A stretch of DNA of 64,000 nucleotides from a virus. This document shows, one piece after another, positions 60,553-60,852 of the stretch. Positions within the stretch are counted from its first letter, which is position 1. The number at the start of each line of letters is the position of its first letter. Made by a program: the position numbers and the translations under genes. The DNA lies in IMG/VR virus record IMGVR_UViG_3300003667_000040, positions 1-64,000 of that record; one strand, 5' to 3'. The notes beneath the pieces are model-generated. The model was not told where the DNA came from and did not search any database. It was given only the letters and a program-made list of their open reading frames with translations.

Positions 60553-60852
60553 AATTAGCGGGCATGGGTGCTGACCCCATTGTCTCCGGCTTATGAGACC
60601 GGCGTGAAAACCGTTTCACTCGCCCACTATGTGCCGGACAAGTCTCCGGCTTGACGTTTCCGTGGTTTTGCCACGGCTAGAGCCGCACTAGGCGACCCCG
60701 TTACTCCGCTTGCACCTGGCAAGTAAGCTATGATGCTTCGGCGTGTACTTTGCCGATCTAGGCCGCATCAAGCCCAATAACTAAACGGGACGGATTTCCG
60801 TACCCGCAATATAAACCGCATCGAGGGTTTTCACTGATTCAATGCGGAGCTA
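60553..60852 (-). ncRNA. about 300-nt promoter-driven, non-coding, hairpin-dense RNA directly abutting tRNA-His (class unknown)
   Basis: No credible ORF. The class-A promoter at 60860-60888 points into it. Hairpins include CCGUGG-CAAAA-CCACGG, GCCGGA-GACUUG-UCCGGC and GGCG-A-GUGAAA-CGGU-UUUCAC-GCC. AAGCCGGAGAC is repeated on both sides of GCCGGUCUC. Confidence 0.5.

What the first reader, a model, noticed from the sequence alone, without database searches (positions are those of the whole stretch)
60553..60852. Second leader-type structured RNA, fused to tRNA-His, with mutually exclusive pairings
A class-A promoter (60860-60888) drives about 300 nt without any credible ORF, ending exactly at tRNA-His(GUG).

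The RNA contains strong hairpins:
- CCGUGG-CAAAA-CCACGG
- GCCGGA-GACUUG-UCCGGC
- a roughly 10-bp GGCG/GUGAAA...UUUCAC/GCC helix

The 11-mer AAGCCGGAGAC occurs twice, flanking GCCGGUCUC. The central GUCUC can pair with either GAGAC copy, which is a switch-like arrangement. The AAGCCG(G) motif also recurs in the tRNA-Thr-linked RNA (CAAGCCGGAUAA, GCAAGCCGUGG), which hints that the two RNAs are related.

The tRNA-His lacks an encoded G-1. That is notable because bacterial tRNA-His normally encodes it, so 5' processing of this precursor matters.
Basis: partly seen in the sequence, partly recalled or inferred. Interest (0 to 1): 0.65.

Follow-up and report, generated by a model that had tools for sequence, protein, structure and literature searches.

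The report
Phage tRNA operon hiding atypical tRNA
The 300 bases in front of this phage's tRNA-His are not one switch-like RNA: they are a 224-base hairpin-rich leader followed by an unannotated, atypical tRNA with a CAU anticodon, so this is a fairly ordinary phage tRNA operon whose leader has no known job.

Summary
The sequence features are real. There is a recurrent phage promoter, no credible ORF, strong hairpins, a duplicated 11-mer, and a tRNA-His with U at -1.

The interpretation needs correcting in four places:
- **Hidden tRNA.** The last 73 nt (60556-60628, minus strand) form a cloverleaf with a CAU anticodon. It scores 39.6 bits on Rfam tRNA (threshold 29) and lies 3 nt before tRNA-His. 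ARAGORN misses it at default settings.
- **No switch.** Pairing with the upstream GAGAC copy has predicted probability 0.0. The 11-mer duplication is absent from the closest relative.
- **Orthologous slot.** Two related phages (L012, L014) carry ordinary tRNA-Met(CAU) genes at the same position, with the same A1-U72/A73 acceptor end.
- **No link to the tRNA-Thr RNA.** BLAST and a covariance model find no relationship.

The remaining 224-nt leader is unusually structured (z = -3.8). Its 3' 150 nt are conserved in L012, where two hairpins change in a compensatory way. Leader length varies between relatives (65, 165 and 224 nt), it matches no Rfam family and it has no terminator.

Most likely this is an RNase P-processed polycistronic tRNA precursor with a modular 5' leader. 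Relatives carry an abiF-antitoxin-like RNA in the same operon, so an RNA-cargo role for the leader remains possible.

The parts
60855..60889 (-). Phage promoter of the recurrent class (GTTGAAAAA-N15-CGCGTATATATA). TTGAAA lies at about 60883-60888 and the TATATA block at about 60855-60865.
   Evidence: There are 7 pattern matches (6 distinct sites), all on the minus strand, against 0.49 expected. The motif is identical in L012 over about 35 nt, and the -10 block is also present in L014. The other copies sit just upstream of protein-coding ORFs. The transcription start is not mapped.
60778..60852 (-). Window-specific 5' module of the leader. It includes the hairpin GGGUACGGAAAUCCGUCCC (60787-60805) and the 5' strand GCUCCGC (60844-60850), which pairs with GCGGAGU (60703-60709).
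   Evidence: Minimum-energy fold. The module is absent from the L012 leader (alignment A2). No similarity was found elsewhere.
60629..60777 (-). Conserved core of the leader (149 nt). It contains a 33-nt invariant block with hairpin UCGGC-AAAGUACAC-GCCGA inside helix GAUGC/GCAUC (60726-60771), then hairpins P3 (60709-60723), P4 (60679-60699), P5 (60660-60676) and P6 (60633-60650), and ends in ...GGCACAU.
   Evidence: The core is 83.6% identical to L012 2671-2826, against about 73% at ferritin third codon positions. RNAalifold predicts 38 pairs, 4 of them changed on both sides in P3. The upper stem of P5 changes from UGG/CCA to AAU/AUU (read). Covariance model R1 finds only these two sequences. 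The L012 leader gives z = -4.45.
60556..60628 (-). Unannotated atypical tRNA or tRNA-like cloverleaf. The anticodon is CAU (loop CUCAUAA at 60591-60597), with A1-U72, A73 and no encoded CCA. The odd positions are G8, G54 and G58.
   Evidence: Rfam tRNA scores 39.6 bits against a gathering score of 29. The minimum-energy fold is a perfect cloverleaf at -30.4 kcal/mol, z = -3.1. ARAGORN finds it only at -ps80. L012 and L014 carry canonical tRNA-Met(CAU) in the same slot, and 11 of 21 pairs are compensatory. The D-plus-anticodon body occurs in 3 IMG/VR phage contigs and in no GTDB genome.
60553..60555 (-). 3-nt spacer AUU between the two cloverleaves.
   Evidence: Read directly. The same CUAAUU junction precedes tRNA-His in L012.
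60480..60552 (-). tRNA-His(GUG), with G1-C72, C73 and U at -1 (no encoded G-1).
   Evidence: ARAGORN and Rfam at 67.8 bits. It is 97.3% identical to the L012 copy. The -1 position was read.
60385..60479 (-). Conserved structured trailer with three hairpins (60462-60477, 60439-60454, 60395-60429). It leads into a 54-aa ORF at 60220-60384.
   Evidence: The trailer aligns across 4 phages with 26 predicted pairs, 6 of them compensatory. It is 92.6% identical to L012. It is kept in L014 and L013, which lack tRNA-His at this position.

Best explanation
The interval is the 5' part of a phage polycistronic tRNA precursor, not a single regulatory RNA.

A phage-specific promoter (60855-60889) transcribes, in this order:
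- a 224-nt multi-hairpin 5' leader (60629-60852);
- an atypical tRNA with a CAU anticodon (60556-60628);
- a 3-nt spacer;
- tRNA-His (60480-60552);
- a conserved structured trailer;
- a small ORF.

**Shown:** the promoter class, the two adjacent cloverleaves, the excess structure of the leader, its partial conservation with compensatory changes, and canonical tRNA-Met(CAU) genes at the same position in two relatives.

**Inferred:**
- Host RNase P cuts after ...GGCACAU and after ...CUAAUU.
- Host nucleases trim the 3' ends, and the CCA-adding enzyme completes both tRNAs, because CCA is not encoded.
- The leader is removed as a by-product of RNase P cleavage. I take it to be mainly a cis-acting, modular precursor segment: stable hairpins that keep upstream RNA from interfering with cloverleaf folding and that protect the 5' end.
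- The CAU tRNA most likely serves as an extra tRNA-Ile2 (after lysidine modification) or as an elongator tRNA-Met. AUA makes up 40% of the phage's Ile codons.
- The tRNA body in the window was replaced by recombination with another phage tRNA(CAU) lineage.
For: **Second cloverleaf**
- Rfam tRNA scores 39.6 bits against a gathering score of 29.
- The minimum-energy fold of the 73-mer and of the 149-nt dimer gives clean cloverleaves.
- ARAGORN calls tRNA-Met(cat) at a relaxed threshold.

**Positional orthology**
- L012 (ferritin 89% identical) and L014 (76% identical) carry ARAGORN- and Rfam-positive tRNA-Met(CAU) genes right after the same promoter and the ...CGGCACAU leader end.
- The three tRNAs share A1-U72 and A73, and 11 of 21 pairs show compensatory change.

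**Body replacement**
- The slot is only 63% identical between the window and L012. tRNA-His is 97% identical and ferritin DNA 87%.
- The D and anticodon arms are 39/41 identical to a tRNA in the unrelated IMG/VR contig L004.

**Leader**
- z = -3.78, and the signal is strand-specific.
- It ranks third of 161 windows.
- The core is conserved in L012 with compensatory hairpins, and the L012 leader gives z = -4.45.
- Leader length is 65, 165 and 224 nt in the three phages, and only ...CGGCACAU is common to all. That fits a dispensable, modular precursor segment.
- There is no Rfam family match, no terminator-like site and no ORF.

**Context**
- AUA is 40% of Ile codons, 25.7 per 1000.
- The phage encodes an RNA ligase, which suggests that tRNA integrity matters to it.
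Against: - **Deviant tRNA positions.** The CAU element differs at near-universal positions (G8 instead of U8; G54 and G58 instead of U54 and A58). It scores well below its neighbours (39.6 against 52-68 bits), and ARAGORN rejects it at default settings. It may not be chargeable.
- **Leader more structured than a spacer needs to be.** The leader is more structured than nearly all of the genome and keeps a perfectly conserved 33-nt block. That is more than a mere spacer needs and hints at a function of its own.
- **Thin comparative data.** Only one full-length relative of the leader was found, so compensatory changes cannot be told apart from block replacement of hairpins.
- **No expression data.** There is no transcript, processing or aminoacylation evidence.
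Confidence: 0.75

Rival explanations
1. RNA-cargo operon. The leader, or its conserved core, is a functional trans-acting RNA such as a protein-binding decoy against a host defence system. RNase P cutting at the tRNA-like element releases it with a defined 3' end. In this reading the tRNAs double as processing punctuation, in the manner of MALAT1/mascRNA or plant mitochondrial t-elements.
For: - In relatives the same promoter-leader-tRNA(CAU) scaffold carries extra non-tRNA RNAs. One is an abiF-motif-like element: RF03085 at 32.7 bits against a gathering score of 37, E = 7e-4, and 91% conserved between L012 and L014.
- abiF-motif RNA is a trans-acting antitoxin of AbiF (PMC12373285).
- No Abi_2 gene lies nearby in L012.
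- The leader core has a 33-nt invariant stem-bulge-stem and exceptional predicted structure.
- The deviant T loop of the window's CAU element would fit a processing signal rather than a decoding tRNA.
Against: - The window itself has no abiF-like or other known RNA-family match.
- The leader shrinks to 65 nt in L014.
- No homologues were found outside one relative.
- The only antisense match to phage transcripts is 14 nt, with E = 0.06, and it is not conserved.
Confidence: 0.2
2. The CAU cloverleaf is a non-decoding tRNA mimic or a decaying pseudogene. It is kept, if at all, only as an RNase P/RNase Z recognition module or as a decoy for a tRNA-targeting nuclease.
For: - G8, G54 and G58 replace near-invariant U8, U54 and A58, and the tRNA score is low.
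- ARAGORN rejects it at default settings.
- Its D-plus-anticodon body is found only in phage contigs, not in 185,579 GTDB species genomes.
- Phage tRNAs that evade or neutralise tRNA-targeting defences are documented (PMC10264068, PMC11555353, PMC11464382).
Against: - All four stems are intact, and G18-G19, U33, U55, C56 and G53-C61 are kept.
- Positions 54 and 58 pair with each other in tRNA and have changed together.
- Three other phages keep the same body joined to canonical T arms, so that body belongs to working-looking tRNAs.
- Heavy AUA use gives a decoding rationale.
Confidence: 0.3
3. This is the first reader's model: a riboswitch- or attenuator-like leader in which a central GUCUC alternates between two GAGAC copies to control tRNA-His output. 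The model also holds that the RNA is related to the tRNA-Thr-linked RNA.
For: - The 11-mer AAGCCGGAGAC really is duplicated.
- The RNA is highly structured.
Against: - Pairing with the upstream copy has probability 0.0, and the other copy is simply the 3' strand of the anticodon arm.
- The duplication is absent in L012.
- There is no terminator-like site in the leader and no Rfam aptamer match.
- The Thr-linked RNA shows no similarity by BLAST or by covariance model, and no excess structure.
Confidence: 0.03
4. The leader is evolutionary debris: remnants of former tRNA genes or RNA cargo modules in a recombination-prone array, with hairpins but no function of its own.
For: - Leader length and content vary greatly between close relatives (65, 165 and 224 nt).
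- A 395-nt block is present or absent between CUAA repeats in L012 compared with the window.
- The P6 region UCAAGCCGGAGAC resembles the 3' half of the CAU anticodon arm, UCAUAAGCCGGAGAC.
Against: - No tRNA-like signal, even at E <= 10, lies upstream of 60628.
- The core is more conserved than ferritin third codon positions (83.6% against about 73%).
- Its changes sit in hairpins that stay paired.
- The structure z-scores are extreme in both phages.
Confidence: 0.15

Closest known systems
Polycistronic phage tRNA precursors, such as the bacteriophage T4 tRNA cluster with dimeric precursors and co-transcribed stable RNAs (from my own knowledge), and the dense tRNA arrays seen here in IMG/VR contigs L002, L006 and L007
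   Same: - tRNAs are packed 1-5 nt apart under one promoter.
- CCA is not encoded.
- Maturation depends on host RNase P, 3' trimming and CCA addition.
- Non-tRNA RNAs can share the transcript.
   Different: - This operon has only two tRNAs.
- It has a 224-nt highly structured leader and a conserved structured trailer that runs into an ORF.
- One tRNA deviates at positions 8, 54 and 58.
- Processing is inferred, not shown.
Phage-only tRNA(CAU) lineage with D arm GUGAAACGGyUUyCAC and anticodon arm CCGGU-CUCAUAA-GCCGG (IMG/VR contigs L002, L004, L005)
   Same: - The D-plus-anticodon body is 39-41/41 identical.
- All of them are missed by ARAGORN at default settings.
- The body is absent from GTDB genomes.
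   Different: - Those three copies have canonical UUCGA-type T loops, whereas the window copy has GUCAGCA.
- The acceptor stems are unrelated.
- The window's acceptor stem matches the tRNA-Met of its own relatives instead.
tRNA-like structures used as RNA-end processing signals: mascRNA at the MALAT1 3' end (Rfam RF01684) and plant mitochondrial t-elements (PMC1920247)
   Same: A cloverleaf-like element directly abuts a longer structured RNA, and RNase P cleavage would define that RNA's 3' end.
   Different: - Those examples are eukaryotic or organellar.
- The mascRNA model hits only tRNA-His, at 18.2 bits against a gathering score of 42.5.
- Here the element has a full anticodon arm, and true tRNAs occupy the same slot in relatives.
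abiF-motif antitoxin RNA (Rfam RF03085; RCd22 of C. difficile, PMC12373285)
   Same: Relatives L012 and L014 carry a near-threshold abiF-like hairpin in the same operon. It is a small structured RNA that acts by binding a protein.
   Different: - The window has no such match, even at E <= 5.
- The leader hairpins have a different sequence and different loop geometry.
- No abiF gene is adjacent.
Riboswitch and attenuator leaders
   Same: A long, structured, promoter-proximal non-coding leader.
   Different: - There is no aptamer family match, no terminator or RBS platform, and no conserved alternative pairing.
- It precedes tRNAs, not an mRNA.

Membership tests
tRNA (Rfam RF00005), for 60556-60628 | Covariance-model score at or above the curated gathering score (29 bits) | tested here: met
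   The score is 39.6 bits, with E = 1e-6 for the local search and 7.1e-5 for the whole window. Rfam's default fast filters missed it.
tRNA (Rfam RF00005), for 60556-60628 | Cloverleaf with a 7-bp acceptor stem, 4-bp D stem, 5-bp anticodon stem, 5-bp T stem and a 7-nt anticodon loop with U33 and a purine at 37 | tested here: met
   The minimum-energy fold is the cloverleaf at -30.4 kcal/mol, z = -3.1. The loop is C-U-C-A-U-A-A. The stems covary with the tRNAs in the same slot in L012 and L014: 11 of 21 pairs.
tRNA (Rfam RF00005), for 60556-60628 | Conserved tertiary-interaction nucleotides: U8, A14, G18-G19, G53-C61, U54-U55-C56, A58 | tested here: inconclusive
   A14, G18-G19, G53-C61, U55 and C56 are present. 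Position 8 is G, position 54 is G and position 58 is G (alignment). Whether G54/G58 can replace the U54-A58 pair is not testable here.
tRNA (Rfam RF00005), for 60556-60628 | Detection by a dedicated tRNA gene finder at default stringency | tested here: not met
   ARAGORN at default settings finds only tRNA-His. tRNA-Met(cat) appears only at -ps80, and in a shifted register.
tRNA (Rfam RF00005), for 60556-60628 | Processing, CCA addition and aminoacylation in vivo | not testable with these tools
   This needs tRNA sequencing or Northern blots of infected cells.
Riboswitch or transcription-attenuator leader | Match to a known aptamer or leader family | tested here: not met
   Rfam at E <= 10 over 60100-61000 and at E <= 5 over the whole window returns only tRNA and sub-threshold noise.
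Riboswitch or transcription-attenuator leader | Expression platform: an intrinsic terminator or an RBS-sequestering helix | tested here: not met
   No terminator-like site lies on the minus strand within 60553-60852. The downstream genes are tRNAs.
Riboswitch or transcription-attenuator leader | Conserved mutually exclusive helices | tested here: not met
   The probability of GUCUC pairing with the upstream GAGAC copy is 0.0. The 11-mer duplication is absent in L012.
abiF-motif RNA (RF03085) | Covariance-model score at or above 37 bits, normally upstream of an abiF/Abi_2 gene | tested here: not met
   The window has no hit at E <= 5. The relative L012 scores 32.7 bits (below threshold, E = 7e-4) with no Abi_2 gene in the 8.5 kb fetched.
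tmRNA / Y RNA-like (YrlA) | Model score at the family threshold. For tmRNA, also a tag reading frame. | tested here: not met
   ARAGORN finds no tmRNA. YrlA scores 18.4 bits against a gathering score of 69, and the match merely spans the two cloverleaves.
Same RNA family as the tRNA-Thr-linked RNA (19904-20362) | Detectable similarity in sequence or in sequence plus structure | tested here: not met
   The longest shared word is 9 nt, E = 0.44. Covariance model R1 with filters off scores 2.9 bits, E = 0.18. The Thr leader gives z = -0.81 and uses a different promoter type.

The most novel reading that the evidence does not exclude
In this phage clade the promoter-leader-tRNA(CAU)-...-tRNA-His locus may be a swap-in cassette for small structured RNAs that act in trans against host defences. 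Relatives carry an orphan abiF-antitoxin-like RNA there. In the window, the 224-nt leader with its invariant 33-nt stem-bulge-stem would be a different, still unclassified decoy. RNase P cutting at a degenerate tRNA would release it, with that tRNA serving mainly as a processing signal.
Probability: 0.2. Interest if true: 0.65.

Novelty: new member of a known kind. Interest (0 to 1): 0.35.

Why it matters
- **Annotation.** A standard tRNA finder and Rfam's default filters both miss a tRNA gene that sits 3 nt from an annotated one. Three other metagenomic phages carry the same atypical body. Phage tRNA(CAU) genes of this type are therefore probably under-counted.
- **Biology.** The locus shows how phage tRNA operons evolve by module swapping. 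In one slot the tRNA body has been replaced. A 395-nt RNA block is present or absent between relatives. Leader length varies threefold.
- **Possible anti-defence route.** If the leader, or the abiF-like RNA of the relatives, acts in trans, tRNA operons would be a general delivery platform for phage anti-defence RNAs. That would give a direct route to testing RNA-based escape from AbiF-type systems.

As it stands, the finding is an ordinary tRNA precursor with an unexplained, well-structured leader.

Tried and rejected
1. **Known RNA families.** Rfam at gathering thresholds and at permissive E-values returned nothing but tRNAs.
2. **Homologues among cultured phages.** blastn at E <= 5 matched only the tRNA-like part, to genes annotated tRNA-Met.
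3. **Exact-pattern scans with leader segments.** IMG/VR and JGI metagenome contigs gave zero hits for the 36-mer, 22-mer and 24-mer. The window's own contig is apparently not in those collections.
4. **Relatives found through the portal protein.** There are few, and L008, L010 and L011 lack the tRNA region.
5. **Relatives found through the ferritin-like gene.** This was productive for L012 and L014. L013, L015, L016, L017, L019 and L020 do not cover or do not contain the RNA region.
6. **Relatives found through the 103-aa ORF.** L018 has no RNA region.
7. **Covariance model of the leader core.** Across all held loci the only extra hit is L008 8867-9007 (17.5 bits). It lies inside a 362-aa ORF and has many non-canonical pairs, so I rejected it as spurious.
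8. **Antisense targets in the phage.** There is one 14-mer with E = 0.06. It is not conserved in L012 and I treat it as chance.
9. **Further decayed tRNAs in the upstream 224 nt.** None was found, even at E <= 10.
10. **A cellular source for the tRNA body.** The 38-nt body pattern gave 0 hits in GTDB. The 22-mer anticodon arm hit only 4 metagenome-assembled-genome (MAG) contigs.
11. **Literature on phage tRNA-His lacking G-1.** I found nothing specific.
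Full report
**What the window is**

All long ORFs lie on the minus strand. The window encodes a large terminase, an RNA ligase, a DnaB-type helicase, a replisome organiser, an HK97-type capsid protein, a Mu-F-like protein and a portal, so it is a tailed phage. The exact ferritin-like protein next to the finding occurs on a 68-kb JGI metagenome contig. 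No cultured phage is close: the best portal match is 34.5% identical.

**Checking the observation**

- ARAGORN and Rfam confirm tRNA-His(GUG) at 60480-60552 on the minus strand.
- The promoter-like motif GTTGAAAAA-N15-CGTATATATA at 60858-60889 gives 7 pattern matches at 6 distinct sites. All are on the minus strand, against 0.49 expected and none of 100 shuffles.
- The other promoter copies sit just upstream of protein-coding ORFs. This is the only copy followed by a long non-coding stretch.
- Inside 60553-60852 the only sense-strand ORFs are TTG-started and 29-31 aa long.
- The named hairpins and the duplicated 11-mer AAGCCGGAGAC (60642-60652 and 60582-60592) are present.
- The 300 nt fold at -119.7 kcal/mol, against -99.4 +/- 5.3 for dinucleotide shuffles (z = -3.83).

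**The key correction: a hidden tRNA**

- A permissive Rfam scan finds a second tRNA at 60556-60628. It scores 39.6 bits, above the curated threshold of 29, with E = 7e-5 even for the whole window.
- Its minimum-energy fold is a clean cloverleaf (-30.4 kcal/mol, z = -3.1). Together with tRNA-His it folds as two adjacent cloverleaves separated by AUU.
- The anticodon loop is CUCAUAA (anticodon CAU). The acceptor stem is AGUGGGC/GCCCGCU with A73.
The "GCCGGUCUC flanked by two GAGAC copies" is the anticodon arm plus the variable region.
- The element is atypical, with G8, G54 and G58. ARAGORN rejects it at default settings and calls tRNA-Met(cat) only at -ps80.

**Relatives**

A search with the ferritin-like protein found a homologue 89% identical on a 69-kb Logan contig (L012) and one 76% identical on a short contig (L014).

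*L012*
- It has the identical promoter and a 165-nt leader.
- It then carries a canonical tRNA-Met(CAU) (52.5 bits, found by ARAGORN) exactly where the window has its atypical cloverleaf.
- A further 395 nt of non-coding RNA follows, then tRNA-His and the same trailer.

*L014*
- It has the promoter's -10 block and a 65-nt leader ending ...CGGCACAU.
- It then carries a tRNA-Met(CAU) and a short RNA.
- The trailer follows directly, with no tRNA-His.

*The tRNA slot*
- The three tRNAs in this slot share A1-U72 and A73, and 11 of 21 pairs change in a compensatory way.
- The slot is only 63% identical between the window and L012. tRNA-His is 97% identical, the trailer 93% and ferritin DNA 87%.
- The window's D and anticodon arms are instead 39/41 identical to a tRNA in the unrelated IMG/VR contig L004, and near-identical to those in L002 and L005.
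- That body pattern occurs in no genome of 185,579 GTDB species. The 22-nt anticodon arm occurs in only four MAG contigs.
- My inference is that the tRNA body in this slot was replaced by recombination with a phage-only tRNA(CAU) lineage.

**The remaining 224-nt leader (60629-60852)**

*Structure*
- It is still exceptionally structured: -87.9 kcal/mol and z = -3.78, against z = -1.80 for the opposite strand.
- It ranks third of 161 equal-sized windows across the phage, where the background has mean -0.17 and sd 1.24.

*Conservation of the core*
- Its 3' 149 nt align to the L012 leader at 83.6% identity. Ferritin third codon positions are about 73% identical.
- A 33-nt block, GAUCGGCAAAGUACACGCCGAAGCAUCAUAGCU, is invariant, and the last hairpin plus ACAU is almost invariant.
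- The differences sit in two hairpins that stay paired. P3 changes from CUUGC/GCAAG to UGUAC/GUACA, with 4 pairs changed on both sides. P5 changes from CCGUGG/CCACGG to CCGAAU/AUUCGG (read).
- The L012 leader is also highly structured (z = -4.45).
- The 5' 75 nt are specific to the window.

*What it is not*
- No terminator-like site lies in the leader.
- It matches no Rfam family.
- No homologue turned up in cultured phages, IMG/VR or JGI metagenomes, and none among all the loci I held when searched with a covariance model of the core.
- The single extra covariance-model hit lies inside an ORF and is spurious.

**Testing the "switch"**

- In the partition function of the whole precursor, GUCUC pairs with the upstream GAGAC copy with probability 0.0.
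- The only alternative is a register shift within the anticodon arm (0.36), against 0.64 for the cloverleaf stem.
- L012 has a different anticodon arm, so the 11-mer is not duplicated there.
- The switch idea is therefore not supported.

**Testing the link to the tRNA-Thr RNA**

- The 459 nt upstream of tRNA-Thr are not unusually structured (z = -0.81).
- They have no Rfam match.
- They follow a different, consensus TTGACA-N17-TATAGT promoter.
- They share only 9-mers with the His leader (E = 0.44).
- The leader covariance model, run with filters off, scores them at 2.9 bits (E = 0.18).
- No relationship is detectable.

**G-1**

- tRNA-His has G1-C72, C73 and U at -1.
- The same holds in L012 and in three cultured T4-like phages: Enterobacter EnA02, Aeromonas PX29 and Klebsiella ATCCa.
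- L002 does have G at -1.
- The point is correct, but it is a recurrent property of phage tRNA-His genes rather than a peculiarity of this locus.
- Its biochemical consequence cannot be tested here.

**How it most likely works**

*Shown*
- One promoter is followed by a structured leader, two adjacent cloverleaves without encoded CCA, and a trailer.
- The trailer's three hairpins are conserved in four phages, with 6 compensatory pairs.
- A 54-aa ORF comes next.

*Inferred from the established tRNA maturation pathway*
- RNase P cuts 5' of each cloverleaf, after ...GGCACAU and after ...CUAAUU.
- Host nucleases trim the 3' ends and the CCA-adding enzyme finishes them.
- The leader is released by the first RNase P cut.

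*The leader's role*
- Leader length is 65, 165 and 224 nt in three relatives, and only the last 8 nt are common to all. Most of it therefore cannot be needed for tRNA processing.
- My best guess is a modular cis-acting precursor segment.
- A released trans-acting RNA is the main alternative.

*The CAU tRNA*
- It may decode AUA after lysidine modification, because AUA is 40% of Ile codons and as frequent as AUG. It may instead decode AUG.
- Its odd T loop leaves open that it is only a mimic or a processing signal.

**Comparison with known systems**

- The locus works like a phage polycistronic tRNA precursor.
- The CAU element passes Rfam's tRNA threshold but fails three near-universal nucleotide positions and a default gene finder. 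It is best called an atypical tRNA of a phage-only lineage.
- The leader belongs to no described family.
- In relatives the same operon holds an abiF-motif-like RNA (32.7 bits against a threshold of 37, E = 7e-4). abiF-motif RNA is a trans-acting antitoxin of AbiF toxins (PMC12373285).
- Phage tRNAs themselves are documented counter-defence tools (PMC10264068, PMC11555353, PMC11464382).
- This keeps alive the reading that the locus is an RNA-cargo cassette, but nothing in the window itself shows it.

**Verdict**

The sequence features are real, but the switch interpretation is wrong and the link to the Thr RNA is unsupported. What is there is a phage tRNA operon with a previously unnoticed atypical tRNA(CAU) and an unusually structured, partly conserved leader of unknown function. 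Interest is modest (0.35). The most novel reading still open is the RNA-cargo cassette, at a probability of about 0.2.

Noticed in passing
L012 2929-2965; L014 about 190-226: An abiF-motif-like RNA (RF03085, 32.7 bits against a threshold of 37, E = 7e-4) sits between tRNA-Met(CAU) and tRNA-His or the trailer. A 57-nt block containing it is 91% identical between the two relatives. No Abi_2 gene lies nearby, so it is a candidate orphan antitoxin-RNA decoy. It is absent from the window.
   Followed up: partly
L012 3160-3293: A tRNA-shaped RNA lies 3 nt before tRNA-His. It has an 8-bp acceptor-like helix (UAGAAUCG/CGAUUCUA) and a canonical T arm (GCAACG-UUCGAUU-CGUUGC), but a branched core of about 90 nt in place of an anticodon arm. 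ARAGORN does not call it as a tRNA or a tmRNA.
   Followed up: partly
window 60385-60479 (minus strand): The structured trailer after tRNA-His has three hairpins conserved in four phages, with 6 compensatory pairs. It is kept even where tRNA-His is missing, and it runs into a small ORF. The tRNAs therefore sit inside what looks like a long 5' UTR.
   Followed up: partly
window 61901-62548 (minus strand): A 215-aa protein has weak Sigma70_r2 and Sigma70_r4 hits, each just below the Pfam cut-off. It may be a phage sigma factor that reads the GTTGAAAAA-N15-CGTATATATA promoters.
   Followed up: no
window 7443-8570 (minus strand); L018 1103-2859: The phage encodes an RNA ligase (PF09414 plus the PHA02142 OB fold). 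A distant relative has an RNA ligase plus RlaP next to a homologue of the 103-aa ORF. This suggests an RNA or tRNA repair capacity.
   Followed up: no
window 56448-59591 and 54731-55510 (minus strand): The portal is 1047 aa, against 663 aa in L012. Part of it matches mycobacteriophage genes annotated as HNH or LAGLIDADG endonucleases, which is consistent with an intein-like insert. A GIY-YIG/NUMOD3 homing-endonuclease-like gene sits in the head module.
   Followed up: no
window, 29 long ORFs: AUA is the most used Ile codon: 40% of Ile codons and 25.7 per 1000, as frequent as AUG. This gives a rationale for a phage tRNA-Ile2(CAU).
   Followed up: partly
window 60553; L012 3296; L025-L027: tRNA-His genes with U at -1 and C73 (no encoded G-1) occur in this phage, in its relative and in three cultured T4-like phages of enterobacteria and Aeromonas.
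   Followed up: partly
window 47601-47824 and 26401-26624 (minus strand): Two 224-nt windows have even more extreme folding z-scores than the leader (-5.0 and -4.7). The first spans a GC-rich hairpin (CCCCUGG...CCGGGGG) between two ORFs.
   Followed up: no
window 19904-20393 (minus strand): The tRNA-Thr-linked non-coding stretch of about 460 nt follows a near-consensus TTGACA-N17-TATAGT promoter. It has no Rfam match and no excess predicted structure (z = -0.81). What it is remains unexplained.
   Followed up: partly
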